Shown: one piece after another, positions 4,122 to 52,500 of the stretch
How positions within the stretch are numbered: the first letter of the stretch is position 1
Layout: the number at the start of each line of letters is the position of its first letter
Source of the DNA: Euglena gracilis
Taxonomy: Eukaryota
Reading direction: 5' to 3'
NCBI GenBank assembly: GCA_039621445.1
Contig: CP154954.1
Location: 12,580,716-12,644,715 of the forward strand
DNA length: 64,000 nt
Position numbers and translations under genes: made by a program
Notes under the pieces: generated by a model
What the model was told of the DNA's origin: nothing
The model's database searches: none
Seen by the model: the letters and a program-made list of their open reading frames with translations, nothing else

Positions 4122-9793
<5,672 letters not shown>

Positions 9794-17474: not shown

Positions 17475-18856
17475 GCTGCCATATATATTATATGTGTGTA
17501 TACATGTAATTTTAAATTGACATATAAGCATAAACATTTAAATTCCCCTTATCTTCTCTGTCCCCTTGCTTTGCAGTCGACCACGGAGAGTTCCACTGCG
17601 CATATTATACCGCTGAGAGAACGTCCCTCAATCATTTCCCAGTTATCTGGCTCTTGTTTTGGCTTCATCCCTCTTCGCTTTGATCTGCAAAAGCATTTTT
17701 CCCCACCTTGAGGAGCTTTGTGAAGCCGTAGGGGGGGAACTTCCTGTTGCACAGAAACAGGTTTGCAAAGACTTTTTTAACTGGAATATTTAATTTCGTA
17801 TGGGAAAAGACTTCAACGTAAAATATTTCACAAATGTCATTCTGCAATTATGATATGAAGGCCCCATTTGAACCAAATTTTTTACCTCACTGGTTAATAC
17901 CTTGTTCCATAAGATGCTCCAGAGAAGTGCCACTTTAACAAAATCAACAAAAACGAAGAGTGCACCACAACAAGGGCAGCCAAATCAATGCGCTCCGGCT
18001 CTGAATGCAAGCTTTGTTGGACGTGCAGGAGCTTTCACTCCTCCCCTGGAATTAGGGAGGGCGGACGTTCCGATACCCACCAATATTGTTGTACATTAGT
18101 TGACGACTTTCCTGAGTTTTTGTTTGTGTTTGTGCTTGTGCGCGAAAGATCAAGGATCATCTTGCTGATTTGTCAGCTCTGTTTATTTGTTTTATGGGTA
18201 CATGGGTGTGCAGATAAATGATATCAGTCAATAATCATTCACAGTTCGCTGATTACAATTGCACAAGTCACTGTTACAATTGCAGATTTGTTGTAATTTT
18301 TTTTTTCACAGCAAGTGTGTTGTAGAAATTTCATTGTATTTTTACCTGAGCCGTGAAGTACTACTCACTCACAGGTCTCAAAGAACATGTATTCTTTCTT
18401 TGTTGTGTTTCTTTGTTATGTGAAGAAAATCGGGGGTTTCAAAACTGTACCCAGCTTCCAATTTTTATTGAGGGCCACCCATTGCCTTTGCCAGCCTTGA
18501 CAGAAAGGGTTCGCAGTATCCCCCCCCCCCTGGCTGGACTGCAGCTGGTCCAAATTTGTCCAGTGGCATTTTAAGTGGACCCCGGAGGGGGGGATCCGCT
18601 GGCAGGGCTAGCTAGTGAAAGTTTTTGTTACAGTTGCTGGCGCGAAGTGCCGAAAAGAATTTTGGGACCCCCAAAACTGGCCAAATGCCCACAATTGGCC
18701 ATTTTTAGGATTTTTTTGGAACAAAGTCTGCCAAAAACCCGTTAAAATCTCATTTCTACCTCGGGGCACAGCACCAGAGGGATTTTTTTTTTCAGTCGGA
18801 GGAACCCCTGGACCCCCCCCCCCCTGGAACCGGGGCGACAGCGATCGCACACCAAT

Positions 18857-19138
18857 CAAGGATGGATATTGGATATCGGCCCATATCGGGTTTATCGAAT
18901 ATCTTGAATTTATCGGAGTTTATCCGAAAAAAACATCGTGAAATATCGGCTTTATTGGGGGGGGTATTTTTTTGTTGTATTTTGGGTGATTTTGGTATTC
19001 TCCAAATCACGAAACTGAGGATATCGGGGCACAAAAGGATCATATCGGTTTTATCGACTTTTATCGACAATATCGGGGTGCCAATCTATCCAAATTTATC
19101 GAGACTGCCCCAAAAACCAATATCAAGATCCATCCTTG
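18857..19138. mobile_element. MITE with ATATCGG internal repeats, 7-bp TSD
   Basis: TIR CAAGGATGGAT / ATCCATCCTTG; TSD CACCAAT on both sides. Confidence 0.85.
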
Positions 19139-19284
19139 CACCAATCAAGCCAGGAAGCGGACCTGTCGGGTGATCACCTGCGCATGGTGGATCTTCAACC
19201 TGCCCCATGAAGTTGGCCGCGACCACTCTGGATTGTGTCAATTTGTTTGGTTTTATTCATGCGACGGGCGGTCCAACGGGAGTC

Positions 19285-19345: not shown

Positions 19346-32714
<13,369 letters not shown>

Positions 32715-33121: not shown

Positions 33122-33166
33122 CACTCTCTTTTATTTTGTTACGTTTGTGTTATGCAATTTTTGCAG
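33122..33166 (+). promoter_or_regulatory. Putative spliced-leader trans-splice acceptor of Rab21
   Basis: T-rich tract ending TTTTTGCAG two bases before the ATG. SL trans-splicing is established in euglenozoans. A 5' UTR cis intron is not excluded. Confidence 0.55.
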
Positions 33167-33168
33167 CG

Positions 33169-36100
33169 ATGTCGGACCACTACAAGATCTGCCTGCTCGG
33201 AGAGGGCCGAGTGGGTAAAACTTCCCTCGTCCGCCGGTACACCGTGGATGACTTTTCTGAAAAGGAGCAAACCACAGTGCAGGTTTGTGTTTTGTTTTTC
33301 CCGCCTGTTTCTTTTGTGAGGCCCCTGTACGTTTCTGTTCCATGTGCAGAACAAGAAATGCACACTGGAATGTTTGAGTTTTTTTCAATCATCCGGTGCA
33401 GGTGTTTATTTGTGCGACATATTGCCCTTTATTTGCACGACAAGTCTTTTGGCCATTTGAAAATTTTGGTTTTTTTTTACATATCTTCAGCCAGAAAAAC
33501 GTATAGAAAAAAAACGCTTCGCAGCCTCTTGTAAAGCAATCTTTCCATCTGTGTGTAATTCTGAGTCTTTTTTTTTGCCATTCTTCAACTCTTTGCCTAG
33601 CACTCTGCCCCAATCGTCTCTGGTTGGGCCCCGTAGGCCAACATGTACTCCAAGAAGCGGCTGCAGATCGAGGACCAGGTAGTCACCATCGCTATCTGGG
33701 ACACCGCTGGCCAGGAACAGGGCTGTGCGGGAATGAATGCCCGAAACCCCAATGGGTGACGATGGTCGATCGCCGCCACGAAGCACCGATAAAAGGATGG
33801 GGCGTGATGGGGCGTGATTGGGCGTAACTGGGTTTGGGACTCTGGATGACCACCCGCGCGGCCCTGGCCAAGAGCGGTTCCACGCCCTCGGGCCCATCTA
33901 CTACCGCGACGCCAACGGTATTCTCCGCCCCCGTCCCCACTCCCGCCCCACCCTCTTCACCCAGGGGGGCTTCTCACGCCATCTTCTTCTTTTTCCATTT
34001 CATCTTCTCGGGCTCCATTTCTATTCCAATGCACATCGGTTCCGCATTGTGTTGCGTTGTGTTCGTTGCGACTCCCTGAGTGTCCGCCCCACCAGGCGCG
34101 TTGCTCGTGTACGACATCACCGACGCTGAGATCAGGCCTCTCCTTCCTTGTTCCCGGACCACCCCCGGCTTCTTGCTCGCCGCTCCTGTCGCCAGCACTT
34201 TTCCTGTGTTTTGTACTAGCTGTTGTTCACACACGGCTTCCGATCAGGCATTTGCTTAAGGGATTGCAGTACCCCCCCCGGGGGGGGGGCAGCTAGTCCA
34301 AATTTGGCTTTCTAGCAGACCCCCCCCGGGGGGGTCTGCTAGCAGGGCCAGCTAGTGGAATTTTTTTTCCCCAGTGACCGGCGCGAAGCGCCGAAAATTT
34401 TTTTCGGACCCCCAAAAATGGCCCAAAATGCCCGTTTTTGGCCATTTTTGGGAATTTTTGGAACAAAATCAGCCAAAAACCTATTAAACCTCATTTTCCC
34501 TTCCGCGCGCAGCGTTGGGGTAAATTTTTTTTCCAGTCCGGGGCACCCCCGGACACCCCCCCCGTGGTCCTTAAGCAAATGCCTCCTTCCGATCCCCCCT
34601 CTCTGGTTCAAGGCTCAGGTTGTCTTTGTGCCCTCGAGAGAACTGACACCATTCATTTTTATTTGATCCTCTTTATTATTCGTTTCCGCCAGCTATTTCC
34701 ATCTACGCTGCTGGAACAAGGGTGGGAAGCACTAGTGCATATGCGTAGAACAGTAGTAGTGGCAACTTTTTTTTTTCATGGTTCATTGTTGTTCCTGATG
34801 TGATGTTGTTGCCCTGAATTTTGGCGCCTTGGTGATATGGTGAAGCCTGGTTCTCACGTTCGAGCGGGTGAAGCATTGGATTAAGGAGCTGAAGTCGGTG
34901 GTCGGGGACGACATCGAGTACAGGCTGTCTTTTTTCCTTTATCAAAATGAACCCCCGGACAATAACCACAACCCTCCCTCCGAGTGGCCCTGATGAGCAC
35001 TCCTGAACCCAGACAGATAATATTGTCTTTCTTTTTGTTGTCTGGTTTCCAAAAATGAAAATGGAGGGGTTTCTGGAGGAAATGGGATTTTTTGCAGGCA
35101 GGCTTCAGGTTAAGGGTTTGCAGTACCCCTCGGTGGGGGGATCAAATATTTTTTGGCACATTTTGTTCCAAAAAAAATGGCCGAAATGGGCATTTTTGGC
35201 CAGTTTTGGGGGTCCAAAAATTATTTTCGGTGGTTCTCGCTGGTCACTTGAAGAATATTTTCTATTAGCTAGCCCTGCCAGCGGACCCCCCTTCCCTAGG
35301 ATTTCCATTAGTCAGTAGTCCAAATTTGGACTAGTTCCGAGGTGGAAGTGAGTAGAATCCCCATTCTTCCTTAAAGACCCCAGGAGTCAATGGCTAGCCA
35401 TTTTGCTGACACTGGAAAATAGCCACTAGCTGGACCCCCCCCCATGTCCCATGTCCTCGGGAGGTCGCAGGGTGGGGTTTCTTCTCTGGTATGGGCGGAA
35501 TGATTGGATCCGCCATCAGAAGCCCTCAGCTTCCGATTCCAGTCGGAAATTTCAGTGCAGACCACCTCCACGTGCAGCGCCGGAGAAATATTTTTCCCGT
35601 TGGGCTGCCCCCCTGCCCCCCCCCTCCCCGCTGATTTTAGAAAGCTGGGATCAACCGGACGTCGAGAAAGATAGAGGCATGTTGATGCCTTGCAGTTTCC
35701 GAGCCGGCCCCGGGCGGATAATTGGCTATGACGATCCTGGAGGTCGTAACGACCTAGGTCGGCCCGACCATTGGTCGGCCCGACCATGGTCGGCCCGACC
35801 TAGGTCGGGCCGACCACTGGAGGTCGGGCCGACTAGCCAATTAACCGCATTACCCCCCCCTTTTTCAAAATTTTCAAAGGATTTTTGACTATAGGTCGGT
35901 ATAGGTCGGGCAGACCATGGTCGGCCCGACCTGTTTGTTACCGACCATTATGGTCGGTAGAAACGACCTCCATGGTTTTCCATTTCAGAAGCATAAAAAC
36001 CCTTGGCCAAACCCTGTGGAACATACAGATGGGCTATTTTACCTACCTGGGGGCACACAAAAGGAGTTTGTTGGGGGGCGCGTTTTGGCCATCCTTGCCT

Positions 36101-38583
36101 TGCACACACAAGGGGATTTTGTTATTTTAGGCGGGGTGGCCAGGGGGGCGGCAGCCCCCCCCCCCCCCGGAGGAGGCCGTAGGCCGACTAAGTTCGCGTT
36201 TTCTTTTTTTTTCATATGGGATGCTTTTTGACAGTTTCAAGGTGTGTTTCCATCCTTTTTGAGTCAAATTTGCCGAATCAAATTTTGAGGGGGGGGGGCT
36301 TAAATTTCCAAAAAAGGGGGGGTAATGCGGATGATTGGAGGTCGGGCCGACCAGGTCGGCCCGACCTCCAATGGTCGATAGGCCATAGCCAATGGTCGGC
36401 CCGACCTAGGTCGGTCCGACCATGGTCGGTACGACCTCCGGGATCGTCATAGCCAATTATCCGCACGGAGCCTTCTGAGCCAATTTACAACATAAGGGGA
36501 TAGGTTATCTAACGAAATGCATCCAAGCCAAACAAACAACGTCTGGACAAATTTTACGTTATGCCGTTTTTTTTTGTCATCAGGCGAAGAAAGTGAGGTG
36601 GAAGCAAAAGAAGATGCCCAACGACCCAGAACAAATCCCCCTGAACCCGAGGAACAGGGTGACTCGCTGCTCGTGGGGTGGGGGGTCATTGACACTGCCG
36701 CACAAATTTCTTAAATATGACTTTGCCACTGTTGGAAAAAAATGGACATAAATTACATGTTCCCAAAAAAGGAGGCCAATGCCAATGGTTCGACTGTGGG
36801 GTTCGGTCCGTTGGGGTTATTTCCCCTCACCAGCCAACAAGTTTTTGCAAGCCTTTAACTTCAACCCCCATCTGTGCATTTCGACGGCGGATGGACTCCG
36901 CCGTGGGGAGTCCCATCTCGGGACTTCTGAAATCTCTTCTGGGTCAAAATGGCAGTGTGATCGAGGTGGTGGTCTGTGGCAACAAGTGCGACCTGGAGCG
37001 GCACCGGCAAGTGTCGCAGGAGGACGCCGTTGGGTATGGACCCCCCTTGCCCGTCAAACCCCCCCGGGTCCTGGGTTGTAGATGACCTAAGGTGGGGTTT
37101 TTTTTTGCATTTGGTCGTGCGACCACCGCCTGGTATGACCCCCCCCTCTGGCTGGGGGTTGGAGGAATCTGGTCGGTGGGGCGGATGGGCACCATCCCTC
37201 TCTCTTTGAATCACGGGACGTGCTCCACATTAATGCCGCGGTTCTGTCCCGGTGGAGCACTGCCAGTGGGCAAACACGAGCACTGCTTTTCACCAGAATA
37301 AGCGTTTATGTTGGGAGGGGGGAGGCAGAAGGCAACTCCAATGGTCCGGACGAAGCCAACCCTCGGGGTGCGAAGGGGGTCGGACCGGGTGGTTTCCCGC
37401 TGCAGGTACTGCAAGTCAGTGGGGGCGGAGCACTGCCTGACCTCCGCCAAGCTGAACAAGAACGTGGCGGAGGCGTTCGTGGCCCTGACCCGCAGTATGC
37501 CTTCGTAATTTCATACGAACGGCTCACGCGTGCATCCCATTTTAAACATCTGGCTGGCACTGCTTTTTTTTCTGCTTTTTTCAACGTTCATTATATTATC
37601 AGGGATCCCATCGTTTGTTTGCTCTTTAGAGAGCCATCTGGTTTTATTTTGGGGAGATAATTAAGTTATTTATATTGTTTTTTTTTCATTTTCATTTTTA
37701 TCCAGGCCATTAATTATGCAAAAATTCAATTTAATTTGAAATTCTAACTTCCTTCCCGTATATGCCTGCAATGGAACCCCTCAGGATTTTTGTTGGCCTG
37801 TTGCACCATCGATGGCCATTCGGCAGGAATGGTGGCAGTGCGGTCCCGGAAGGCCTCCATGACCCCACTCAGGCGGTGGTTTGGGGGAGATAGGGGAACA
37901 GGAGTCCATATGCTTCTAATCCTTCCCGTGTTCCGCTGCGTGTATGTGTACATGTTGTATGTATATATGGAAAAAGGTGTTCAAAGATGGCCAAAAAATG
38001 GTGTGTTTTGGGTGTTTTGGGCGTTCTTTTTTTTTGGGAGTTGTCAGATCTGAGATTGAGATCAATCTCAATCTTTTCAAAACTGTGTTTCGCGGGTCAT
38101 TATTTTTGGCAATCGCCCCATTTCGACCGAGCCCAGCCCAGCTCATATCAAGCTAGGGTCCAGCTCCTCCCCCTCCTCCTGGGGCGGGTTGGCCAGCCCA
38201 AAATTCTAGTCCTAGCCAGCATCCGCCCTGGGTCCTCAAGGACACGTGTGCATGCAACACCGTACGTATTGTATTACGAGTGCAAATATTTCATTCATAT
38301 ACAATATGCGTCTAATGTATGTGTATGTACACAGACATATACACACGGCGTATATCTATTTTCCTGTACTTCATTTGTGGATGCGAAACTGTTTGTGTGT
38401 TTCGTCTGTGGACACTACAAAGATCGTGGTTCACCACGCTAAATGAATGTCTGGTCCAAAGAGCCGCCTGGGACGTCGCGGGGCCTCGGCAGCGGCGTGT
38501 ACGGCCGGAAGGGGGCCGGCATCCGCATTGTGGACGACGAGCCCGTTGTGAAGAAGCAGGGCGGCTGCTGCTCCTACGCGTGA
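33169..38583 (+). CDS. RAB21: Rab21 small GTPase
   Basis: Exons 33169-33282, 33637-33714, 33872-33917, 34096-34129, 34855-34917, 36965-37033, 37406-37494, 37827-37866, 38475-38583. Motifs: [43 protein letters not shown] (Rab21-type switch II), GNKCDL, TSAK and C-terminal GGCCSYA (CCXXX prenylation). Confidence 0.92.
33715..33871 (+). other. Nonconventional intron (N3/N5)
   Basis: GAA-CAGGGCTGTGCGGG / CCCGCGCGGCCCTG-GCCAA, a 14-bp stem with 2 G-U pairs. Restores WDTAGQ|ERF; flanks GCCAGGAA / GCCAAGAG (6/8). Confidence 0.92.
34130..34854 (+). other. Nonconventional intron (N3/N5) hosting a MITE
   Basis: GAT-CAGGC / GCCTG-GTTCT. Restores DITDA-D-TFERVKHW; a 1-nt slide giving E is also possible. 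Confidence 0.85.
34245..34585. mobile_element. MITE family A, 8-bp TSD
   Basis: Same TIR (terminal G changed to C) and a closely similar body; TSD CTTCCGAT on both sides. More degenerate family-A copies lie at ~18500-18830, ~35100-35380 and ~44470-45140. Confidence 0.9.
34918..36964 (+). other. Nonconventional/intermediate intron (GT start, no AG)
   Basis: GTA-CAGGCTGTC / GGCAGTGTG-ATCGA; flanks ATCGAGTA / ATCGAGGT (6/8). Restores DDI-E-VVVCGNK. Confidence 0.85.
35710..36468. mobile_element. Long-TIR (foldback-like) element with GGTCGGCCCGACC repeats
   Basis: Near-perfect inverted termini of about 40 bp (CCGGGCGGATAATTGGCTATGACGATCC... / ...GGATCGTCATAGCCAATTATCCGCACGG) continuing into palindromic repeats; flanks AGCCGGCC / AGCCTTCT (5/8). 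Confidence 0.8.
37867..38474 (+). other. Nonconventional intron (N3/N4)
   Basis: ACT-CAGGCGG..TTTGG / CCAAA..CCGCCTG-GGAC. The frame requires 7 (or 10) nt outside the stem. Confidence 0.7.
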
Positions 38584-39487
38584 GCCCTCTGGGTGTGTGT
38601 GCCCCAGGGGAGTGTTGGGCGGATTGAGCTTTTTGTGGTTGAGTCATCTGCTGTACTCATGCCCCCCCCCACAAGCAGTTAAATGGGAATCTTGGAAACT
38701 CTATTGAGTCTTCCATCCTGCCCATCCAAGGGCTGCACAGAATTCCCTGAAAGCCCAAGGCGGGGGGTCTCTTCAAATCGGTTTCGTGGATAGTCAAGGG
38801 CCGGATACCAGGCCAAAATTGTTGGAAAATACCTGACTTTTCTTTAAAAAAGAGTCCAAATTTTGTTATTTTTCATTTTTTTTGGCATTTGTCATCATGC
38901 AGAGAACACAGTCTGCTTAAAAGTGAAGAGGGAGAAGGGCTGGTTGACTGCTTTTTTGTCGATTTCACACCTGGGAAGGAGGGGTTCAATTCTCCCTTTG
39001 GGCACCAGAAAACCTCAAATTGCTTTCGATTTGGTATTTTTATTTTGAAACGTCTGCCAAGCTTTCATATCTGCAAGTAGTAATTTATAATAGTGTTCAA
39101 ATTGGAGGTGGCGGAGACATGTTTAAAATAGCAATCAGTAATCTGACGTATCGTTTCATTAAAAAAAAAATTGGAAAATTGGAAACCAATGGACCCTTAT
39201 TTCCTTGTTTTTGTTGACCAAGCAAACGTCTCCCATAAACCCAAGTTTTTTTTTGGATCTTGTGTTCTTTGTGCGAGTTGATCTTGTGGTTTGCCAGGGT
39301 GTTTTCTCTCGTTGGAACAAAATAAATAATCGTCTTCAGAGTTCCAAATCCAAACCATGAAAATTTCAGGATAACAAACATTCATCTGGACCATCAAGCA
39401 CGTCGAGGGTTTGTTATGGCATCGATGAGGTATTTTATCGGTGGGCTTTCTCAGTATTCGTGTTTGTGTTATTTATTTTGTCTTCAG

Positions 39488-40872
39488 TTCCCCCGGCGAT
39501 TGCCTTCTGCTCCTGTCGTATACGTGGCTGAGCAGGTGCATCCTGGGTTCAGGGCCTTGTGAATCCCTGAAACTCTGTGGGTGCTGCATGTGGGGAGGTC
39601 GACCATCAAAATAATATTCCCCTTGGGAGTATTATTTGGACGGCAGAGGTTTTTAATTACTCTCTTTTTATTTGCGTAAAGTCCGCCCTGCTGAAGTGGG
39701 GCTGTTTTGTGCCCAGGATGCAGAATATTGTTTGGGGGGGTCATTGTTAGGGGGGATATTATTTGGGAGGTATTGCTCAGTCCACCATCATCAATATTTT
39801 GCAGTCTTTATTTTGCTTCAAACATTCGTATGCGAGTTATGGTTTTTGAATGGCGGTGTGGAGGGGGTCTGTGTCACCGAAAATTCCGTGCGCTGCGCCT
39901 GCCCGAGAGGTCTCCCCCGGCCGTTTCTGGCTTGCCCCTGACCCACCGTGCACGGGCCAACCTTCTCCGCCGTATGTGCATTTTTTCCATCGTGGCACCG
40001 ACTGCCCATTGGATCCTGTGGTGACGGCGGCTGCTTTTAGTCTTGACTCCTTGCCCAGGGACAATGGTGTCGGTGCACCCGCACTCCAAACCTCTGCCAG
40101 GAAACTCAAAGTTGCCCTGGGACAGCAAACTGAATTGACCATATGTCCCAAAGTGACCGCTTTCTGCTTTCCCCCCCCAAACGTAAAGATTTGGACCCGC
40201 ATTTGCCATTGCTGTTAATGGTGCCACACAGTGTGTCGTTGCCCCATGCCTCCTTTGTTTGTTTCTTCTTCTCAATTGTCTATTGGTGTCTCTTATTGAA
40301 TCATTTTTTTCATGATTCAGCATGGTCGTGTGATATTCATGTGGTTCTTAGATCTGGGATGCGGTGATGATATGTGTTTTTGGCAAGCGGTGTTGTTCAC
40401 ATTATTTGACGTGCCTCAATCTCCGGGAAGCCACCTACACTCCTGCATTTTGCCCACGCCCAAAGAATTTTGCTGGCGTACCGCAGCATTCACTTCATTG
40501 TGGCCTCCTCCTGTCTATTTGTTTATTTTCCTTCTGACTGCTGCACTCCCTGACCCTTGTTTAATTGAGCAACTGGCTTTGCATTCCCTGAAGAATTCAT
40601 TTTCAGTCCTCCATATTTTTGCTTCGTGTTTTATTTCTGTAGTTGTCCCCTTAGGTTTAAGCCCCAAATCTTACCCCAAATCCGACGGCTAACTGAAACC
40701 TTAACCACATCTTTGTGACGAATGCAATCCACGGCTCAGGAGGCCGGGGGGCAAAGTGTTGGTTGCGTTGGCCAAAGGAAAATTACAGTTGGGAGCCCTG
40801 GTTAAAAATGTTAGGCGGTCGACGACCCTGCATCGTTTTACAAATGGACCCTACACGGTGGGGACTCCCAAG
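39488..40872 (+). CDS. Possible uncharacterised multi-exon gene (fragmentary)
   Basis: Exon-like segments ending in GT donors: ~39488-39535 (FPRRLPSAPVVYVAEQ|gt), ~40018-40152 (...QQTELTICPK|gt) and ~40756-40872 (...YTVGTPK|gtgaga). No recognisable domain; the model and strand are not secure. Confidence 0.25.
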
Positions 40873-41325: not shown

Positions 41326-43573
41326 TGGCACCGAACCAGAAGACGGGGCGAGGAGGCGATCATTTTTAAACCCAGCCCGAATCCCTGAGCTTTTATGGGT
41401 TGGGGAAATACCGCCCCGTCACCAATGGCACCTTTTCCCGCCCCCCTCCCCCCACCCCAGAGCACACATCAACCGACCTCCCCCTCGGCCCTGCCTAACC
41501 CCATTGGCCCCAGTGGCCCAGTGGCCCACCCACGACGGTCCTCAAAGGACCGGCCAGGTGGTGTTTTTTTTTTAAATTAAAGGACCTATCCTTGAGCACC
41601 GACATTAAACAGCTAGCCCGGCTCAAACGGGCTCGACATTGAAAGTCGAAAACATCTTTTTTTTAATGATTTTGGTGCAAGGGCGATGGTCCAAAGCTGT
41701 CAGGCGGCTCTTGGGGTTTCACCCGTGTCTCCCGCTTTCGCCGAGAACTTGTCAGTTTTTCACCACTTTTTGCTCTGGATTTCCAGCGTCCCGGGGAGAG
41801 CAAAGGTTTGTTCTTAGACATTTTTTATTCAAGGACCGCCCTGCCGCCGCCGCTGCCACGGGACCCCAGGCGGGCCGATGCCTCGGGCGGCCAACGTTGT
41901 GGCCGCCCCGTCCCCCCACAGGGGCTCTGGGATGGCCGCCAACTTGCCCTCCCCGACCAGCCCTGGGCCATCGGCTCACCCGCTGTGCTCCCAGTTTTGC
42001 TGCACCAGCCTTGCGGAAGGGGTAGCTTTTGGGAATGAATGGCCAGAGGTTGGAACCCACCCACCAACCCACAGGGGGCGGGCAGGGATAGATGGCAAGC
42101 AATTAGGGGGTAGCTGATTTCTTCTCTCTTCAAAGTAAGAGCGAAGCTTCTCACCAGGGAAGAGGAGGGGTAGAAGCACTCTGCCCCTGGATAGGTAATG
42201 AAGACTACGGATTATCACCATGGCTGGGACTCGTTCCCAGAATTTTTTATTTCAGTCGCGAGCGACTGGATCCCGAGTTTCCGAATCACCTCCTTTTGAC
42301 CCCCAACTGCCCACCGGGCCCGAGTTGTTCACCCGCGAAGGGGTCCAGACTGGGCAGGATTCGCCAACCCCAATTTCAACTCTGCCATTTCTCCGGGAGT
42401 GGGATTTTCGGTCAAAAAATAGACTTTTCGAAAATATCTCGAGTAAACGTTTGTTTCTATTGTTTCCGGAAGTGTCGGTCAGACCAAATGTTCCCCCGGA
42501 GGCAGTCTATAGCCCCCCAAATCGACTATTGTGAGGTTTTTTTCAGGGCCATTTTTTTTGTAAAAACTCCAAATTTTTCAAAATATCTCGAAAAAAAGTA
42601 GGATTATTATATTATTCCGGAAGTCTGAATTAGACCAAATGTACCCCTAGAGGGCCTCTGTCGTCTGTGGCCCAAACAGTGTTTTTGGGCCGCTTTTTTT
42701 TTTTGTCAAAAGCCAATAATTTCAAATCTCGAAAATGAAGGAAGTGTCCAAACAACTCTTTCCTTTTTCCTCAACTGCCCCACCCATTTTTTTTGGCCAT
42801 TTTGATTTGCCGTTTTCGGGGCCATTCTTTGGGTCAAAAAATCGAAACTTCAAAATCTCTCCAAACTGTTCGGGAATCGAACAAAATCACTCGGCGACGT
42901 AAAAGAAGCCCCTGGAAGCCTCTAGCATAGACTGCCAGGGCCAGTTGTGCGCCTGGGCTGGCCGGGCCGCCAGGCCGTTGGGCCGGGCCGGGCCGGGCCG
43001 CCAGGTCGGCCTGGTAGGCAGATGCTTCAAACATCTGCTGCGCCATGGCATCATCAGATCGGATATCTAAAAGAGCAGTGCTGGCACCACTTGCACCGCT
43101 AGGCACCGCTTTGAAACCTTGCTCCAAAACGGCAGGACCCGGCGAAATGTTGTCATTGCTGAACCCGATGAGTTGGCCGCTTTCCCGGCCATTTTTGAAA
43201 ACATCAGTTCCCATGCCCCCCGTTTTGGGGAACACCTCGCAACCTTGCCGTGCCCTGCTGTGCCACGACCGCTTCACAGTCACGAGAATTGCTGCTGGAA
43301 GGATGCTGCCAGGTTCCCCCCACCGGCTCTTGGCCCGCTTCTCTAAACAAACAAATTTGCCCCCCCCCCCCCAAAAGTTGGCTTTCGGCCTTGACTTTCG
43401 ATCCCAGAGGTGCAACCCCAGGTAACCTGTTTCCAAACACAACGACACAAAACACGAGGGGGCCAGCAGACAAACACAAGAACACAAACACAAATTGACA
43501 ACGAACGCGTGTGACACACACTGTGGCCTTCGCCCCATCAGCTTGCGCGTTGCCATCCAAGGTCACCCCCTCA

Positions 43574-46500
43574 ATGGCTCCGTTGGCTCGTGTGGTTGCC
43601 TTGGTCACTGGTGCTGCGCAGGGACTTGCCCAGGCAGCCCTTAACTGACTTGGCCAACAATGGTGACTGCATGCAAAACGTTGTGTGTTTGCGGTCATGC
43701 GTGTTGTCTTTCTGTCCGTGAATGCAAATACGTTTTTGAAAACCATTTTCCCCCTGATGCTCTGTGGTTCGGATGCCAGGGTGTCACACCGAGGGCATCT
43801 TCAGAAGTTCTTATCCCATCCTTCAAGCGGTACAGCCTTTTTCCACCCCACCCCTGGTCATATAGTTTTATTTTATTTTATTTATTCATTTTGGTATGTG
43901 CCAGGGGCGAAATCGGGCGAAATCGTTTTGTTATGTGCCAGGGCCAAGGGCATTTTTTTTTTGGTCAGAAAAGCAGTTTTCTGCATCTTTTCGGCATTTT
44001 AGATGTTCGACCCTTGGTTGGGCCCCGTTTCAGCTCTGGGATCTCCACGGGGGGTCAGCAAACAGAATTTTTTCCAGCCAGGCCATTTTTTCCTGTGAGC
44101 TGGACCCCCCCCCGGGCGGGGTGTCACCAAGCGACACCCTGGTCACAACCCATTCGGTGATACCAACTTTGGGCCATTTCTGTTCACTTTGACGCAATTT
44201 TGACCAGTGTTCCCCCCTTTCAGGCGCTTGGGGTCGTTATTTGCCCGTTCTCGGCAGCCTTTGGCCCCCAACCAGCCCCCCCCCCCCCCCCGTGGCAAGG
44301 GACGGCTGCCCCCCGGCCGGGCCACCGCGCTGCGGTTCGTGGAGCAGGGCGCCCGCGTCGTGCTGGCCGACCTCCCGTCGTCCGGCGCTGCCCGGTTGGC
44401 CCAGGTCCGGGACCCTTCGTGGCGCTTTGGCCAGTGGCACGAGGGATAAACGTTCATCAGGGGTGAGCCTTGGCTTAAGGGTTCGCAGTACCCCCCCCCC
44501 CCTCTGGTGGGGGGGCTGGGCTCCTGGGCTCGGCTGCACCTAGTTCAAATTTGGAATACCAGTGGACCACCTGGCGTGCCGGGGGGGGGGTTGCTAGCAG
44601 CAAGCACCTCCAGTGACAGATCCTGACAAATCCCGACAAATCCCAACAAATCCCAACAAAATACCAAGCAAACATGCAAATAATTTTTGCAAAGAGCATC
44701 ATTGCAAGATGTTTTTTATGCTTTTTTTGAAGCCATACACAGCAAAAAGTGGCCAACGGTCAGCAGAAGTGGAAGGCAGTCCAAGGCAGCAAAACGTGGG
44801 CGAAAGTTTGGCAAAGTGAATAACAACAATCAACAATAGCAAAAAAGTACCCAAGAGTGGCCAAAAGTGGTTTAGTAGTGACAGAAAGAGTCGAAAATGG
44901 ACAAACATGGCAACAATTTTGGGCAACAGTAGCCAAAGCTGACCCAGATGTGGCCATTACTCATGTGGCTGGGACCCCACCACCATTTTTCAAATCCCGA
45001 CAAATCCCGGCAAATTCAGGCAACACCGCCAAAATGCTAAGTGCCTAGAGGTGCACGCTAGCAGTGATAGCTCGTGAAAAACTTTTCTAGTGACCGGCGC
45101 AAAGTGGCGATAATTTTTTTTGGACCTCCAAGAGTCGCCCAAATATATGCATATTCAGACATTTCATTTATTTCGGTTTTTGAGTCCTTGTGGCAGACAC
45201 AAAGAAACATTGTGTATTTTTACAAAAGAAAACCGTCGTCTTCTGGCCTTCCGGCCTTTTATTCATTCCGTGTTTCCGCTCTCACATGCACATTCATTTT
45301 TGTTATCATGGCACTACCCGTGGTGTCCTCTGTTTCCCTGTCCCCACCTCACACCAGGAGCTCGGCCCCAACGCGGCATTTGCTCCCGTGGATGTGACCT
45401 CCGAGGCGGATGTGGAGGCGGCGCTGAAGCAGGCCGCCCCTGGGGCACACCCCCACGATTCCAAATGGCTGTTGTTTCGGATGGGGTGGTGGAGTGGCAA
45501 AGCTCGCCTCCTGCCTGCCTGGCTGTCCTGAGTTAGCCAACCCATAACGACCTCATTGTTTCATTTTGGAAATGAATTTTTTTTGTTTGAACAGTTATCT
45601 TGTGGGCGGGTCCGTTCCTGGAGCAGGCCTTCCCATAGAGTCCTGCTCTGTCCTCTGGGATACATGGTCGACTTCCACTCAGGACTCCCAGCACCCGGAG
45701 GCAGGCTGCCCCCTGACCTTGCCCAGCGCACCTTTCAGTCGGAGGTCAACGTGGCAGTCAACTGTGCGGGCATCCTGGTGGCCTCCAAGACGATGGGCAA
45801 GAAGGGGCCCCACAAACTCAATGATTTCTTGAAGGTCCGCCACGCGCGTGGCTGCTTTGTTACCCACAGTTGCTGGCAACCCATAAAGTTTCCATCAACT
45901 TGTCGTTTTTTTGCCAGATAAAAAAAGAGGAAGGACGTTGCCTAGGCGATATGTCGGTGTCAGGGGTTTTTTTTTTTAGTCTTGGACCCCTCCCCCGGGG
46001 GGGGGGGGGGTGGATCCCTTGTACCCCCTCCCCCCGGTCTGAAATATGAAATAAACCCCGGTGTTTATTTTACCGGTTGTGTTGTTTTGAATTTCCCCCC
46101 ACCTCAACGACTCACTGCACAGGAACGTTGCACGACCATATCACAGGAGCATGGATTATGAATAAAATTTTGAGCAATTGAAAGTATTGTTTTTTTAATG
46201 TTCTCGGTTACAAGAGCAAGTGGTTGGTTGAAGGGGTATATCATTTGCCACGCGTGCCTCATGAGTCACACCTGCCAAACGTGCCACACCTTCCACACCG
46301 TACGTGCCACACGTGGCAACTCTGTCATGCGTGACACATGCACCCCACACATCACATGTTCCACAGGTTGACCTCCCCCCCGTCCCCACTCGCAGGTCCT
46401 CACCGTCAACGTGGCTGGCACATTCAACGTCTGCCGGCTGGCCGCAGCCCGCATGCGGGCCACTGCCCCGGACGCTGCGGGGCAGCGTGGCGTGCTGGTC

Positions 46501-49500
46501 AACACTGCGTCCATTGCCGCCTTCGACGGGCAGAGCGGGCAGGCTGCGTACGCCGCCTCGAAGGGCGCCGTGGCCGCCCTGACGCTGCCCATGGCGCGGG
46601 ACCTGCCAGGGCCTCTGCAGGGTGCTGGGAAGAGAGTTTTTTTTTTTTAAAAATCGTAAACTCTAATTTTTAAGATTTTTAAGGCGTTTGCATATGTATG
46701 TATGTATGAATGTATGTATGTATGTATGTATGTATGTATGTATGTATGTATGTATGTATGTAGGTATGTATGTATGTAGGTATGTATGTATGTATGTATG
46801 TATGTATGTATGTATGTATGTATGTATGTATGTATGTATGTATGTATGTATGTATGTATGTATGTATGTATGTATGTATGTATGTATGTATGTATATGTG
46901 TATATATATGTATGTATATATGTATATATGTATAGATAAGTATATATACATATATTTTACATATATATTTTACGTCGTAAAGTTTATTTTTTTTGTTTTT
47001 AAGGCGTTTATTTTCCAAGGGAAGAAATTATAAGACGTCTCTTTTCGAAGGGAAGTCCAAGGGCCGTCCCTACATCGAACTGGGATCCAAATTAAAAAGC
47101 ATTTGCAACCCCATTTTTTTTTGATGGACCAGGGGCTGGGAGATATTCCGGTCCGGTGTAAACCGGAATAAAAGTGCCAGCCGGTGGTATGAAAATTCTG
47201 CAAGACACAAGGGCAATGAATGTGAAGTTTGATGTGTTTTCATGTTTTCCTCAGTCAATCTCATGTCAGATGGATCGGATGAAGAGGGTGGACCACCAAT
47301 GAAGAAGACAAGATCTTCCAAAGGATGGGTGAATAAGGCGAAATGTAGAAGTGCAATGACAGCTTGATTCAAGGTTTTTCACCGGTTCGTGCCACGAACA
47401 ATCACGAACAATCACGAACCAGCACGAACTTGGGATTTTGGCAAAATCACGAACAATCACGAACAATCACGAATCGAACATCTTTGCAGAAATGTCTTTT
47501 TCTGAGAATGGTGTTGTTCAATCAACCAAAGAGAAAAGATTATGGAAGAGAGGTGGCAAAATGACTCCTCAAAAGGGTGCTGCCCAGGTGTCATACCTAT
47601 CTTGTTTTGATTTCCCCCTTTTTGTCACCTTTTTAAGTTTGGTGGAGTGATGGAAGTGAGAGGTTCACAAATGTGTTGCAGTGTTTGTGATGTTTCAGTG
47701 CACTGGGCCGAGATATTTTGATGCCAAGTTTCAAAATCACAGGCATTTCCAAGAAGTTCAAAGATTTTGCCACGTAAGCCACAGTGATTTCGTTTTGCAA
47801 TGGCGACGTTTCACTCTTGCAAATCTTTGACCTAACCCTTTCCAGCCGCTTTCAACCCGCTGTTTGCTTTGGCGAATTGCATTTGGCACAACGCAACACA
47901 AACCCGCACACCGCGCCTTTTGCTTTCCCCATTGACCTCAATATTTAGATCAGGCAATTGCTTAAGCACTGACCGACCCCCCCCCCGGGGGGTGGGTGAC
48001 TGGTTTTTTCAGAGTGACTGACTGGTTTTGGCCCGGACCCCCCCCCCCCCCCCCGGGGGGGGTCGGCCAGGAGTGGGCAAAAGTGGCACCGAAGGCGCTG
48101 GAAAAAATTTTTGCGCCTAAAATGGCCTAAAGTGACTGGAAAGTGGCCGTTTTTCTGAGTGGCCAACCCCCCCGGGGGGGGGGTAGTGACTGGCTGGTTT
48201 TTTGAAAATGAGTGACTGATTGGTTTTTAAAAAAGTGGAGTGACCCCCCCCCTGGGGGTCGGTAAGCAATTGTATGATTAGATTAAAGATTAGGCACAAG
48301 AAGCCAAAGCACAAGAGGAATCACCTATTTCACCAAGGAAAAAGGAAAACCGGGCGGTTTTTTGGAAGCACGAACAATCACGAACAACCACGAACAATCA
48401 CGAACAATCACGAACCGGATTTCAGGCTTCCTAGCACGAACCGGTGGTAAACCCTGCTTGATTGCACATTCAGGATTATCCCAAGGGAGTGTTTTGTGTT
48501 CGCAAAGGACATACGATGAAACCCAGTTATTTTTTAAAACCACATCAAAGCAATTTAGAATAGTAACCACGTGGCTTCTGCAAAACATAAAAGTGTGAAA
48601 GCAACTCAGTTTGATCGATGACTAACGTCCAGTCGGGCACACGTAGTTTTTTTGGCGTATCAGAAGTGAAGCAAGAGGCAGAAGTGAATGTTTTTCCCTG
48701 AGTGCTTTCCAAAGGGACGTGAACAAGGGCAATATTAATGCTGATTTGACTGCAGCGTTTTTTGTGGCAAGCGATCCCATTGGGCAAAGTGGATCATCCT
48801 CCAATTAGGGGTTCCTTCGTAAGTGCACTGATGTGTACGGATTGTTCAGGGTTTTCTTCAATTTTGGTTAGGATTTTTTTTCCAGGTCTGCATCCAATTT
48901 GCGATTAGACCCAAATTTGACAAAATTGTTGAACAAGCATCTCCGGGCCATCAAGCAAGCTTTTAAGACGGCAGAAACGGTTGTTTGCTGTACGTGATGT
49001 TTGATGGGTGGCTGAACGACATTGGTCATGAAGTGTGCACAATCACAGGAGAAGTATGGTACGTGGTGGAGAGGGGCCAGCCGTGGTGTTGAGCACAAGG
49101 AACTCAATTCAACTTAGGCATCCGGTCTGACTTTTTTTTTGAAAAACGCTAAATTAATTGTTGACAACACCATCTTCAATAAGTTGCGCGGAGAGAGTTC
49201 TTTCGAAGGCTGCCGTATTGGATACAGGGTATTTCTGAAGCCGGAGGGGACACTATCCCCCGGGGGGAGGGTCCAGCCAGACAGCAGAGCTGGGAGCCCG
49301 CCCCCCCGGGGTGAAATAAAGTTGGGTCCAGAGGCTGGGCCAGCCGGCCGAAGGCCGGGCCAGTCGGCTGTAGGCTGACCTGGCCAGCCAACTGGGCTGC
49401 CCTGCATTTTTCCCCTCATCACAGCTTCCTCCATCACAGCCCCCCAGCCTTGGTCTAGCTCCATCCATCAGAATGTCGATAAGGCAAAAATGTTTCAGAA

Positions 49501-52500
49501 AATTTCGTTTTTCATCGACCCAGCCCAGCCCAGCCCCCTCCAGCCCCGGACCCCCCCTCCCCCCCCCCTATCCTCCCCGCGGGGGTCCAGCCAGTAGCTC
49601 GTTTCCAGCCAGCAGCCTTTTTTTCCATCCGGAGGCTGGACGTGGGGAGAGTCCTTAAGAAATCCCCTGATTGGAACCGTGTGACATCAAGGCCATTATT
49701 GCGGAAGGCCAGCATCATGCTGTATTGTAATGGGGACGTTGAATCTCGCTTCGCTGCCAAGTGACCCCATTACACTGCACAACGAGTGCAGTATTTATAA
49801 GGTTTCGTTCAGTTGCCCGCATGTTGGAACAAGCAACAAGCACTCGGCAGGACAATTTTTGAGTAGAAAAAGGAAATGGTGCCAGGGACCTGCCTCAAGA
49901 GAAAACCCTGTGCACCAATTTTTATCAGCTGGTTTTTCCTGAAAAGGCGGGGATCTGCTGTGATGTGCAGACCAAAATGGCCACTTGGTGGGGCTGAACA
50001 ACCAAGGAATGCGTACCTTTTCCCGAAGCCCGGGTGAGCTCGAATTGTATTTCAAAAAATCTTAGGTCCATTTAGGCAGAGATTGACTAGAATAAACCGG
50101 AACAAATTCCGGAATAAACCGGAATAACCCGGAATAAAGCTGAATATAACCCCGGAATAAAAATTTTGGCCGACCGGAATATCTCCCTGCCCCTGGATAG
50201 ACAACTTCCACCGATGCCAGAGATCATTTTTTTCCCCCGGAGTTGGCTTGCTTTTTGCCGAGATTTTGCGATTTCATTTTCAGGTGTTTAATTTTTTAAG
50301 CATTTTGACCAAACATTTTTAAACCGGTTTTAAAGGTTTTTTTTAAGTTTTTTAAGGCACCTTAAAAAGTAACCTCTGGCTGGGTACTCTGTTGCAGAAT
50401 TTGCCCCCCGCCAAAACACGATCTCCAAAAACGGTCATATTTGTTCGCATGTTTTGCATATTCATTTTTGCATTTTGAACACATGCTCGTTTCGTGAGAG
50501 GTGTATATGCTTCAAGTGGTGGTGCTTCTTCAAAAATAAACAAACTTAATTAAAATTAAATTGAATATTAATAATAAATTTTTAAAATGAAATTAAAAGT
50601 TGATATTTGAAGATTCACTCGGATATTTTTTTTTTGATTTCCCAGCTTTCTGCGTTTTGTCATGGACACAAAGTACAGTGCAAGCATTTGCCTTATGGTT
50701 TGTGCCCCAGGGATGCAGACTCACAAAGGACTGAAAGAAAGAGTGGCGTGCTTATTTCTGGACAAAGAACCACCAGCAGCCACCAGCAGCTGTCCTTCTT
50801 CGAGTGAATTTGGCATCCGAGTGGTCACGGTGTGTGCACTCTGTGGTGTCCATCTGTGGATGTGGCATTTCGGTTGGGTTGGCACGTGTTGTGCCAATCG
50901 CACGTGCACAACAAAAGGATCCTGGTCCCAAATTTTCACCTGGGACCTGGGATGAGGTTTCATTTCATCACACAGTGGATATTCAAGGGCTGTTAAGGAA
51001 AGCTTGGTCCCAGATTGCTGGCATTTTGTGGCCTGCTGATTATGCCAACCACTCCACCCAAATTTGCCTTCTTGGCTTTCGTTTGGGCAGATTTCTTTCA
51101 TCTTTCAGGCCATTGTTTTTTCTGAGGTGCAATGGTCTTGTCCAGCCAGGAGCCAGGGGTCCGACCATCTGGGGACACCACCTGGGGAATCCCCTGGTGG
51201 CTAAGGGTCCTCGTCAAATGTGCCAAACCTTCAGCATTTCAGCCAAAGGCAGCTCCTGAGGCGCAGAGGTCACATCCCTCCCAGGGTTTTTTTATAAGAC
51301 CGTGGGGGGGGGTCAGCACTCACCCACCCACCCCCTAGGGTGGGCCCCCAAAATAGCGCCCTTTCCAAAATTTTCGGCGCCTTGGGCGCCGAAAAAGATA
51401 CCCACCAGCCCCATTCCCCACCCCCCCAGCCCCCAGGGGGGGGGAGGGGAGTCCAAGGCCCAGGTCCAAGACCCGTCCACCTTACCCCCCCCTCCCCCCC
51501 GGGGAGGGGGTCCAAGACTAAAAAAAAAACCCCTGATCCCTCCCCATCAAACCAGGAAATAAAAAGTGAAAATTTTTCATTTGCATATTTTTGTGACCGG
51601 ATTTTGAAGGGGGCGACCCTCCCCACTAAGGTCTACGCTTCTGCTGGTTGTGGTCGCTTCCTCCCCCCAGGAAAGTGATCATTGGATTTGGGGGAGCAAC
51701 CCCATAGGGCAGTCCAAGCCTTTTCAGGTCATGGTCTGGTGTGCCATGGTCTGGCTTTTGCGCTGCACGGGGAGGGCATTTGCAATGGGCGTCCCGAGTG
51801 TAGCCACCTTTGAAAACGTGGGCCCCAAGCTCAAATCTTGCAAGAGGTGTGGCAGCAATTGGAAAACCCGCGTCGGGACTTATTCAAAATGCCCTGTAAT
51901 TTTCGAATCACCCAAGAAACTTCTCCCCACCCACTCTCCGATTTTGCCATGTTGATGGAATTCCGGAGTAGCCTTGATGAGGCGACGTAACCCCTACCAA
52001 AAACATGTGAAATTTGCTCCTTCGCCCTAAAAGTGAAATGTTCGGACTCCCAAGGGTGGGCGTATCTGTGATTAAAAAGAAAAGCGACTACTGGATCCCG
52101 CCAAGAAGTTGATTTTTCCGACCGAATATAAAAAATATAAAACGCCCCTGGGGGTCTTGAAATTTCCCTCCAAATATAAAACCGGGGGGTTTATATCTGG
52201 GGGGGGGGTCCCAAATCTTCCAAGAATCACAATTCGAGGAGAGATTATGTCATATAACTTCCTTCCCACGCTTCGCGCCGCAGGGGGGGTTTATATTTGG
52301 GGGGGGATTTCAAGGTCCTCAGAGGGTTTTTTTATTTGGGGGGTTGTTACATTTGGGGGGTTTATTTAAAGTTGCGAAGCCGAATGAGTAGGGATCACAA
52401 TATGACCTACAAAAATTTTGGGATGAATTTCGTCGCCCCCCCTCCCTCCAGATCGCCCCCGGCATGTTTGAGACGCAGATGATGACGGAGACCGTGCCCG

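What the first reader, a model, noticed from the sequence alone, without database searches (positions are those of the whole stretch)
18850..50202. Parallel class of 7-bp-TSD elements, matched by introns needing 3+4 spacing
Seen: 7-bp duplications around CAG/CAA-ended elements at 18857 (CACCAAT), 28180 (CAGATAG), 47370 (CTTGATT), 44601 (CTAGCAG) and 47130 (GATGGAC/GATAGAC). Seen: introns 26995-27737, 37867-38474 and tentatively 19465-19897 keep frame only if 7 (or 10) nt outside the stem are removed; 43628-44314 needs 9. A 7-bp TSD is atypical for hAT. Inference: variation in the 3' spacer may record the TSD length of the founding element.
Basis: partly seen in the sequence, partly recalled or inferred. 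Interest (0 to 1): 0.72.

Follow-up and report, generated by a model that had tools for sequence, protein, structure and literature searches.

The report
Seven-base transposon duplications, one short-spacer intron
In this Euglena-type DNA, small transposons flanked by 7-base as well as 8-base duplications are real and one intron is cut one base closer to its stem than usual, but nothing here shows that the two facts are connected.

Summary
The window is euglenid-type nuclear DNA with spliced-leader acceptors and stem-guided nonconventional (NC) introns. All five 7-bp flanking duplications stand at the stated coordinates. Two cannot be read as 8 bp (28180, perfect; 47130, 6 of 7). Three (18857, 44601, 47370) can also be read as 8 bp if a terminal base of the inverted repeat is counted as flank. 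Seven other CA-ended elements have 8-bp duplications and none has 9 bp. RNA joints confirm intron 37867-38474 as N3-CAG...CTG-N4, inside the coding sequence of a Rab-like GTPase. They confirm 43628-44314 as N3...N6, which the published Euglena code already allows. Seven further NC introns are 3+5. Introns 26995-27737 and 19465-19897 have no RNA or protein check, and frame-keeping 3+5 alternatives exist for both. The 3+5 introns keep 8-base flank identity (27 of 56 positions, p=1.5e-4; two at 6 of 8). The N4 intron has 1 of 7 and the N6 intron 3 of 9. Published mutagenesis shows N4 and N6 are tolerated. The proposed link between spacer length and duplication length is untested here, attractive, and not found in print.

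The parts
18857..19138 (.). Non-autonomous CA-ended element, 282 bp, ends CAAGGATGGAT.../...ATCCATCCTTG, TATCGG-type subterminal repeats. Flanked by CACCAAT (18850-18856 and 19139-19145).
   Evidence: The direct repeat extends to 11 bases (CACCAATCAAG), so an 8-bp reading (CACCAATC with the left terminal C counted as flank) is not excluded.
28180..28631 (.). Non-autonomous element, 452 bp, ends CAGGGGGGGGGAATGCAACTTG.../...CTG. Perfect 7-bp duplication CAGATAG (28173-28179 and 28632-28638). The clearest 7-bp case.
   Evidence: Neither neighbouring base allows an 8-bp reading. It lies inside the RNA-verified 3+5 intron 27798-28949.
44601..45057 (.). Non-autonomous element, 457 bp, ends CAAGCACCTCCAG.../...CTAGAGGTGCACG, GACAAATCCC subterminal repeats. 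CTAGCAG on both sides (44594 and 45058).
   Evidence: A G before the left copy allows an 8-bp reading. Ungapped comparison with a relative's right end at 6808 keeps the terminal G in the element, which favours 7 bp. It is inserted in a copy of the CAGGCATTTGCTTAAGG element family, inside GT-AG intron 44405-45357.
47370..48456 (.). Non-autonomous element, 1087 bp, ends CAAGGTTTTTCACC.../rc CAGGGTTTACCACC, CACGAACAAT subterminal repeats. CTTGATT on both sides. Nested inside 47130-50195.
   Evidence: A G before the left copy allows an 8-bp reading.
47130..50195 (.). Non-autonomous element, 3066 bp, inverted repeat CAGGGGCTGGGAGATATTCCGGTC (23 of 24 by my count). Flanks GATGGAC / GATAGAC (6 of 7).
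   Evidence: At k=8 the flanks match at 1 of 8 by my count. No Pfam transposase domain among the 48 ORFs scanned of the 53 ORFs of 60 aa or more in 45.5-51.3 kb; I dropped the 5 ORFs that lie in the (TATG)n tract at 46650-47030.
47951..48276 (.). Small element of the ...ATTGCTTAAG family nested in 47370-48456. Flanks TTTAGAT / ATTAGAT.
   Evidence: 6 of 7 at k=7 and 4 of 8 at k=8. It can equally be an 8-bp ATTTAGAT with one T lost from the right copy.
23371..23765 (.). Comparator with an 8-bp duplication (ACCCAAGA), ends CAGGCATTTGCTTAAGG...CTG. Six further 8-bp cases: 34245-34585 (CTTCCGAT), 51282-51535 (ATCCCTCC), 55293-55590 (GTCGCGGG), 56005-57368 (CTCGGCAT), 6857-7287 (7 of 8), 3800-4103 (5 of 8).
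37867..38474 (+). Nonconventional intron with N3-CAG...CTG-N4. CAG at 37870-37872, CTG at 38468-38470, 7-bp perfect stem CAGGCGG/CCGCCTG, next exon base G. It lies in the coding sequence of a Rab-like GTPase.
   Evidence: joint 37865->38474, skip 608, slide 1. Support: X1 one contig, X2 one contig, X21 8 reads from 7 starts, X24 1 read; the ORF stays open across the joint to ...GGCCSYA stop. No N5 register pairs (checked by hand on the sequence).
43628..44314 (+). Nonconventional intron with N3-CAG...CTG-N6 and next exon base G, in a short-chain dehydrogenase gene.
   Evidence: joint 43627->44315, skip 687, slide 1; X21 24 reads, X24 6 reads, one contig each in X1 and X2. Removal joins ...VTGAAQGL to GRATALRF.... 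A stronger 7-bp helix, GGCAGCC/GGCTGCC, sits in a 5+4 register.
26995..27737 (+). Not verified.
Evidence: No listed joint. The only database protein is an unspliced read-through ORF. A 3+5 alternative, 26996-27753, has a 7-bp Watson-Crick stem.
19465..19897 (+). Not verified.
   Evidence: Outside the laid stretch. The (CA)n tract at 24865-25087 blocked the first request. No protein relative was found. There are 17 frame-keeping N3 candidates with stems of 6 bp or more: 5 with N5, 8 with N6, 4 with N4.
33715..33871 (+). RNA-verified 3+5 nonconventional intron with an 8-base duplication remnant, GCCAGGAA / GCCAAGAG (6 of 8). The six other 3+5 introns are 27798-28949, 34130-34854, 34918-36964 (ATCGAGTA / ATCGAGGT, 6 of 8), 39530-39906, 40063-40446 and 41143-41848.
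33166..40562 (+). Rab-like small GTPase gene with a spliced-leader acceptor near 33166. It has 11 introns: 5 GT-AG and 6 nonconventional.
   Evidence: (Ras/Roc Pfam hits).

Best explanation
WHAT IT IS
The stretch is euglenid-type nuclear DNA. Genes are interrupted by GT-AG introns and by stem-guided nonconventional (NC) introns. Many non-autonomous cut-and-paste transposons lie in introns and between genes. These elements have CA(A/G)G...C(T/C)TG ends and short subterminal repeats.

THE ELEMENTS (shown)
Their target-site duplications come in two lengths. Seven copies have 8 bp. Two copies have 7 bp without ambiguity, and four more can be read as 7 or 8 bp.

THE INTRONS (shown)
NC introns are excised as published for Euglena. 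A terminal helix, usually CAG/CTG, brings the ends together. The 5' cut falls 3 nt before the helix and the 3' cut usually 5 nt after it. With an 8-bp duplication, 3+5 removes the element plus exactly one duplication copy and restores the original message. Two RNA-verified 3+5 introns here still carry 6 of 8 of that duplication.

THE SPACER VARIANTS (inferred)
The single verified 3+4 intron and the single 3+6 intron are most simply variants within the known tolerance of the 3' cut. They could be old 3+5 introns whose spacer lost or gained a base while the cut stayed at the purine-led exon. They are not shown to be records of a 7-bp or 9-bp founder.

I take the two classes of duplication length and the spacer variation to be two separate real features, with no demonstrated link.
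For: RNA joints
- One search listed 15 joints: 5 GT-AG, 9 NC and 1 inside a repeat in one run only.
- At the N3 register the 9 NC introns are 3+5 in 7, 3+6 in 1 and 3+4 in 1.

Flank identity at k = spacer sum
- The seven 3+5 introns give 27 of 56 positions (p = 1.5e-4). Off-register values are 10 of 49 at k=7 and 16 of 63 at k=9.
- The N4 intron gives 1 of 7 and the N6 intron 3 of 9.

Published work
- PMC12501133, abstract and sections 5, 8, 11, 12: the code is N3-CDG...CH'G-N5-6|R.
- A 1-bp change in the 5' spacer abolishes splicing.
- The 3' +1 variant looks normal, and the 3' -1 variant gives about 20% transcript.

Elements
- Searches give the coordinates, duplications and the null.
- None of the elements with intact duplications is spanned by a strongly coding ORF after in-silico excision: the best GC3 is 0.69, against roughly 0.9 that I counted by eye in nearby exons.
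Against: - A 3' -1 spacer costs about 80% of transcript in the published assay. Drift from N5 to N4 in a coding intron of a Rab gene should therefore be selected against. Birth as N4 from a 7-bp duplication would avoid that step.
- 7-bp elements with exact CAG...CTG ends (28180, 47130) do exist beside the genes.
- With only one N4 and one N6 intron, absence of duplication remnants is weak evidence: five of the seven 3+5 introns also lack a clear remnant (2-4 of 8).
- 95 joints were not shown, so my tally of spacers is incomplete.
Confidence: 0.55

Rival explanations
1. The 3' spacer length of an NC intron records the duplication length of the element that founded it. An insertion into a coding exon is tolerated only if the cuts remove the element plus exactly one duplication copy. 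So 7-bp elements give N3/N4 introns, 8-bp elements give N3/N5, and 9-bp elements give N3/N6.
For: - The arithmetic holds for the 8-bp class. Seven of 9 verified NC introns are 3+5, two of them with 6 of 8 of the duplication left, in the k=8 register only.
- A natural N3/N4 intron exists in a coding sequence.
- 7-bp elements with CAG...CTG ends exist.
- N4 is spliceable (PMC12501133 section 8).
Against: - The N4 intron has 1 of 7 flank identity, and the N6 intron 3 of 9.
- No 9-bp element was found among 13 elements, although N6 is part of the common published code.
- No 7-bp element is itself an intron.
Confidence: 0.22
2. There is no separate 7-bp class. One transposase family makes staggered cuts of 7 or 8 bases, as the P-related element BuT5 makes 8 or 9.
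For: - The ends of 44601 (7 bp) and 56005 (8 bp) share CAAGCACCTC. The ends of 47370 (7 bp) and 51282 (8 bp) share CAGGGTTT.
- All 13 elements have the same build: CA start, short inverted repeat, subterminal repeats.
- BuT5 has 4 copies with 8 bp and 13 with 9 bp, and families 1360 and Galileo have 7 bp (PMC3698922, passages read).
Against: - The subterminal repeats of the look-alike pairs differ: GACAAATCCC against GGGCGATGC. BLAST finds no likeness beyond the ends.
- The one family with several copies (...TTGCTTAAG) has 8 bp in 5 copies and one ambiguous copy.
Confidence: 0.2
3. The 7-bp duplications are 8-bp duplications misread. Either a terminal base of the inverted repeat really belongs to the flank, or one base was lost at the junction.
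For: - Three of 5 elements allow an 8-bp reading.
- 47951-48276 fits an 8-bp duplication with one T deleted.
Against: - 28180 (perfect 7) and 47130 (6 of 7; 1 of 8 at k=8) allow no 8-bp reading.
- Three of 5 is what chance gives for true 7-bp cases (p = 0.38).
- A relative's right end keeps the terminal G of 44601 inside the element.
Confidence: 0.08

Closest known systems
Euglenid nonconventional introns (code 5'-N3CDG-/-CH'GN5-6|R; Nomura et al. 2025, PMC12501133; Milanowski et al. 2014, PMC3935182)
   Same: No GT-AG ends. A terminal helix with CAG at +4 to +6 and CTG near the 3' end. A 3-nt 5' spacer and a purine at the next exon start. Seven of 9 verified introns here are 3+5 and one is 3+6.
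   Different: Intron 37867-38474 has a 4-nt 3' spacer. That lies outside the published N5-6 code and is known only as a weakened engineered variant. Three of the 9 use other triplets (TGG/CCA, GGT/ACT, CAG/GTG).
   Same: Short inverted repeats that begin CAG/CAA, subterminal short repeats, no coding capacity, and an 8-bp duplication in 7 copies here.
   Different: Two to six copies have 7-bp duplications. No hAT transposase domain was found in the window, so membership of the superfamily is unshown.
P superfamily (P element 8 bp; 1360 and Galileo 7 bp; BuT5 8 or 9 bp; PMC3698922, passages read)
   Same: It shows both 7- and 8-bp duplications, two lengths within one family, and small non-autonomous derivatives with subterminal repeats.
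   Different: No THAP-type transposase was seen, and the ends here begin CA(A/G)G. The likeness rests on duplication length alone.
Introner elements of Micromonas, Aureococcus, dinoflagellates and Amoebophrya (PMC11282704 and PMC7789003, passages read)
   Same: Transposon insertion makes an intron, and excision removes the element with one duplication copy. Inverted and direct repeats lie at the junctions.
   Different: Most introners are spliced by the spliceosome at GT/GC-AG sites co-opted from the element or its duplication. Here the cut sites are set by distance from a helix.

Membership tests
Euglenid nonconventional intron | Excised from RNA without GT/GC-AG ends | tested here: met
   joint 37865->38474 in 4 of 4 runs laid, skipped ends CA..GA. 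Joint 43627->44315, ends GC..CC.
Euglenid nonconventional intron | Terminal helix with CDG at +4 to +6 paired to CH'G near the 3' end | tested here: met
   37867-38474: CAGGCGG/CCGCCTG, 7 Watson-Crick pairs. Six of 9 verified NC introns have CAG with CTG.
Euglenid nonconventional intron | 5' spacer of exactly 3 nt | tested here: met
   All 9 verified NC introns can be placed at N3 within their slide range.
Euglenid nonconventional intron | 3' spacer of 5-6 nt | tested here: not met
   37867-38474 has 4 nt, and no alternative pairing gives N5. The other 8 introns meet the feature: 7 with N5 and 1 with N6.
Euglenid nonconventional intron | Purine at the start of the downstream exon | tested here: met
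   Eight of 9, including the N4 and N6 introns.
hAT superfamily | 8-bp target-site duplication | tested here: not met
   Not met for 28180 and 47130 (7 bp). Ambiguous for 18857, 44601, 47370 and 47951. Met for 7 other elements.
hAT superfamily | Transposase with a hAT dimerisation domain / BED finger in an autonomous copy | tested here: inconclusive
   No such Pfam hit in 150 ORFs (16.5-45.9 kb) or 48 ORFs (45.5-51.3 kb). All elements seen are non-autonomous. The rest of the genome was not available.
hAT superfamily | Short inverted repeats beginning (C/T)AG plus subterminal repeats (recalled feature) | tested here: met
   all 10 listed elements begin CA. Subterminal 8-10-mers are repeated.
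P superfamily | THAP-domain transposase | not testable with these tools
   There is no autonomous copy in the window and no genome is held.
Introner (transposon-born intron) | Intron equals element plus one duplication copy, with the duplication still visible at both junctions | tested here: met
   Met for the 3+5 introns 33715-33871 and 34918-36964 (6 of 8 each). Not met for the N4 intron (1 of 7) or the N6 intron (3 of 9).

The most novel reading that the evidence does not exclude
Euglenid nonconventional splicing is an RNA-level 'precise excision' of cut-and-paste transposons, and its cut geometry is matched to the integration geometry. The fixed 3-nt 5' spacer plus a 4-, 5- or 6-nt 3' spacer equals the 7-, 8- or 9-bp duplication of the founding element family. 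Under this reading, the spacer class of every such intron is a fossil of the transposase that made it. The published N5-6 (and rarer N4) tolerance would exist because several transposon families had to be accommodated.
Probability: 0.2. Interest if true: 0.75.

Novelty: new variant of a known kind. Interest (0 to 1): 0.42.

Why it matters
The source of the very numerous nonconventional introns of Euglena is an open question. They make up 71.8% of E. agilis introns according to PMC12501133. A small-transposon origin has been proposed since 2013 without named elements.

This window shows three things side by side:
- actual elements with intact duplications;
- 3+5 introns that still carry an 8-base duplication in exactly the register the splicing code predicts;
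- a natural N4 intron that the published code does not cover.

If spacer length tracked duplication length genome-wide, it would tie the splicing code to transposase chemistry. It would also give a way to assign old introns to transposon families. If it does not, N4 and N6 are simply the tolerance limits of the machinery.

Tried and rejected
- Whole genome: none is held, so copy numbers and duplication lengths per family could not be counted.
- Sequencing runs: no listed holder is on record as RNA among the indexed runs. I therefore laid two contig runs and two raw RNA runs.
As the tool advised, I asked for the part beside it.
- Protein searches for spliced products. The RRM exon gave only an 85-aa unspliced read-through ORF. 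The small gene's first exon gave nothing among 13 candidates.
- Pfam for transposases: none. The only hits were Ras/Roc, adh_short and three sub-threshold matches.
- Rfam on the whole window: 0 matches.
- Earlier scan notes: none for this genome or for my search words.
- RNA duplex folding of intron ends ran into the exons and did not give clean spacer counts. I used the hand-placed CAG/CTG registers instead.
- The built-in repeat finder and my first scans were swamped by the (CATG/TATG)n tract at 7.6-9.7 kb. One scan timed out, and three scripts failed on an undefined name or a missing import.
- Supplements. Datasets S7 and S8 of PMC12501133 classify introns by motif and by exon start, not by spacer length. 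Its SI appendix PDF could not be read and may bear on N4 frequency. The supplement of PMC11170887 holds no intron sequences (part 1 of 3 read).
- In-silico excision of each element found no strongly coding ORF across any empty site.
- I considered Amoebophrya introners as the source organism. I rejected this after finding the 3+5 CAG/CTG geometry and the T-rich leader ends at 33166 and 43561.


Full report
WHAT THE DNA IS

The window has about 50% G+C. Its genes are broken into short exons. RNA contigs carry T-rich leader ends (TTTTTTTTC) joined at 33166 and 43561 (table 7). From memory, this matches the 3' end of the Euglena spliced leader; I did not find the leader sequence in the papers I read. 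Many introns lack GT-AG and have CAG at +4 and CTG near the 3' end. This is the nonconventional (NC) intron of euglenids. Its published code is 5'-N3CDG-/-CH'GN5-6|R (PMC12501133, abstract and sections 5, 8, 11, 12). No whole genome is held for the window.

THE ELEMENTS

- 18857-19138: CACCAAT on both sides.
- 28180-28631: CAGATAG.
- 47370-48456: CTTGATT at 47363 and 48457.
- 44601-45057: CTAGCAG at 44594 and 45058.
- 47130-50195: GATGGAC / GATAGAC.

Each has inverted ends that begin CA(A/G)G, and short repeated words just inside the ends. No coding capacity was detected. There was no transposase domain in the 48 ORFs I scanned of the 53 ORFs in 45.5-51.3 kb (I left out the five ORFs in the (TATG)n tract). 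There was also none in 150 ORFs of 16.5-45.9 kb.

Controls:
- A scan that asks for an exact flanking repeat next to CA...TG inverted ends found no hit in any of 12 order-1 Markov copies of the window, at k=7 or at k=8.
- A looser scan gave 12 hits at k=7 against 11 in a complement-only control, so the raw count is no evidence. The control hits were all simple repeats.

The same scans and a search with family end motifs found seven elements with 8-base duplications:
- exact: 23371, 34245, 51282, 55293 and 56005;
- 6857-7287, 7 of 8;
- 3800-4103, 5 of 8.
None has a 9-base duplication.

IS IT REALLY 7?

In three of the five, the repeat can be read as 8 bases if the terminal base of the inverted repeat is counted as flank.
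- 18857: the direct repeat runs on to 11 bases, CACCAATCAAG.
- 44601 and 47370: a G precedes the left copy.

For true 7-base cases this happens by chance 44% of the time, and three or more of five has p = 0.38. For 44601, the right end of a relative at 6808 aligns without a gap and keeps the final G in the element, which favours 7. Elements 28180 and 47130 allow no 8-base reading. A sixth case, 47951-48276, is 6 of 7 but could be an 8-base repeat that lost a T.

A 7-base class therefore exists: two firm cases and up to six in all. Whether it is a separate class is open.
- 44601 (7) and 56005 (8) share the end CAAGCACCTC, and 47370 (7) and 51282 (8) share CAGGGTTT.
- Their inner repeats differ, and BLAST sees no further likeness.
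- The P superfamily shows that 7, 8 and 9 bases, and even two lengths in one family, occur elsewhere (PMC3698922, passages read).

THE INTRONS

I laid two contig runs and two raw RNA runs on 25100-45099. Of the 15 joints listed (95 more were not shown), 5 are GT-AG, 9 are nonconventional, and 1 lies inside a repeat in one run only.

The skip is 608 bases with a slide of 1, seen in all four runs (X21: 8 reads from 7 starts). CAG is at 37870 and CTG ends at 38470. The only registers are therefore 3+4 or 4+3. A changed 5' spacer abolishes splicing in the published assay, so 3+4 is the reading.
- That intron lies in the coding part of a Rab-like GTPase. The joined exons read through to a C-terminal ...GGCCSYA stop.
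- 43628-44314 is confirmed as 3+6, which the published code allows. It joins the dehydrogenase motif ...[16 protein letters not shown]....
- The other seven NC introns sit at 3+5 within their slide range: 27798-28949, 33715-33871, 34130-34854, 34918-36964, 39530-39906, 40063-40446 and 41143-41848.

THE TWO UNVERIFIED INTRONS

- 26995-27737 has no listed joint. The only matching database protein is an unspliced read-through ORF.
- 19465-19897 lay outside the laid stretch, because a (CA)n tract blocked the first request. No protein relative was found.
- For both, the claim that only 7 or 10 outside bases keep frame fails. With a 3-nt 5' spacer and stems of 6 or more pairs, there are 14 frame-keeping candidates for the first (7 with N5, 4 with N4, 3 with N6). 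There are 17 for the second (5 with N5, 8 with N6, 4 with N4).
- These include 26996-27753 with a 7-pair Watson-Crick stem and 19502-19904 with another.
I rate it as possible, not shown.

DOES THE SPACER RECORD THE DUPLICATION?

For the 8-base class the geometry fits well. The bases before the helix and after it agree at 27 of 56 positions in the seven 3+5 introns (p = 1.5e-4). The off-register values are 10 of 49 at k=7 and 16 of 63 at k=9. Two introns keep 6 of 8: GCCAGGAA/GCCAAGAG and ATCGAGTA/ATCGAGGT. Removal of element plus one 8-base copy is therefore visible in RNA-verified introns. This agrees with the 'TSD-like' repeats noted in PMC11282704 (passages read) and the MITE hypothesis of PMC3935182 (passages read).

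For the 7-base class there is no such support.
- The N4 intron has 1 of 7, and the N6 intron 3 of 9.
- No 7-base element is itself spliced. Element 28180 lies in the 3+5 intron 27798-28949, and 44601 in the GT-AG intron 44405-45357.
- After in-silico excision, no element is spanned by a strongly coding frame.

The published knock-ins show that one intron still splices with N4 (about 20% transcript) and N6. Spacer drift can therefore make these classes without a different founder. Against drift, the loss of efficiency at N4 should be costly in a coding intron.

PRINT STATUS

Searches for introner/TIR/TSD terms, for Euglena with transposons, for hAT with euglenids, and for Euglena genome repeats found no paper that links spacer length to duplication length. 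None names a transposon superfamily for these introns. Datasets S7 and S8 of PMC12501133 do not sort introns by spacer. Its SI PDF could not be read.

VERDICT

It is a clean, testable, genome-wide hypothesis.

Noticed in passing
33715-33871 and 34918-36964: Two RNA-verified 3+5 nonconventional introns still carry 6 of 8 of an 8-base flanking duplication, in exactly the register the splicing code predicts. For 34918-36964 the slide range of the RNA joint (6) equals the intact part of the duplication. This directly illustrates intron = element + one duplication copy.
   Followed up: yes
33166 and 43561: RNA contigs carry a T-rich leader end (TTTTTTTTC) joined here. I take these to be spliced-leader acceptor sites of the Rab-like and dehydrogenase genes.
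   Followed up: partly
27768-29101, 33771-35104, 44443-45099: Summed contig depth is in the hundreds to thousands over the small elements, against about 10-50 in the bins beside 28180 and 34245. The bins beside 44601 already stand near 100. These families are high-copy and present in RNA-run assemblies.
   Followed up: no
7600-9700: A long (CATG/TATG)n microsatellite with G+C 0.34 and GC skew +0.63. It swamps repeat scans. Shorter (CA)n lies at 24865-25087 and (TATG)n at 46693-46933.
   Followed up: no
35750-36440: Arrays of a 15-base palindromic unit (CGACCTAGGTCGGCC) at both ends of a roughly 600-base stretch inside intron 34918-36964. They give many spurious inverted-repeat plus direct-repeat hits at k = 8-10.
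   Followed up: no
29699-29721 and 30697-30718: Tens to over a hundred RNA reads per site run off into long C runs at these poly-C tracts. The cause is either tract-length variation or a mapping artefact.
   Followed up: no
44464-45143: Element 44601-45057 is inserted into a copy of the CAGGCATTTGCTTAAGG element family. 47951-48276 lies inside 47370-48456, which lies inside 47130-50195. This is nesting three deep.
   Followed up: partly
27798-28949, 40063-40446, 34918-36964: Three RNA-verified 3+5 introns use helix triplets outside the published CDG/CH'G set: TGG/CCA, GGT/ACT and CAG/GTG.
   Followed up: partly
25100-45099 (table 3): Base differences between RNA runs and the window are dominated by T>C (13 and 15 places in X1 and X2). 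They could be strain polymorphism; I did not examine them.
   Followed up: no
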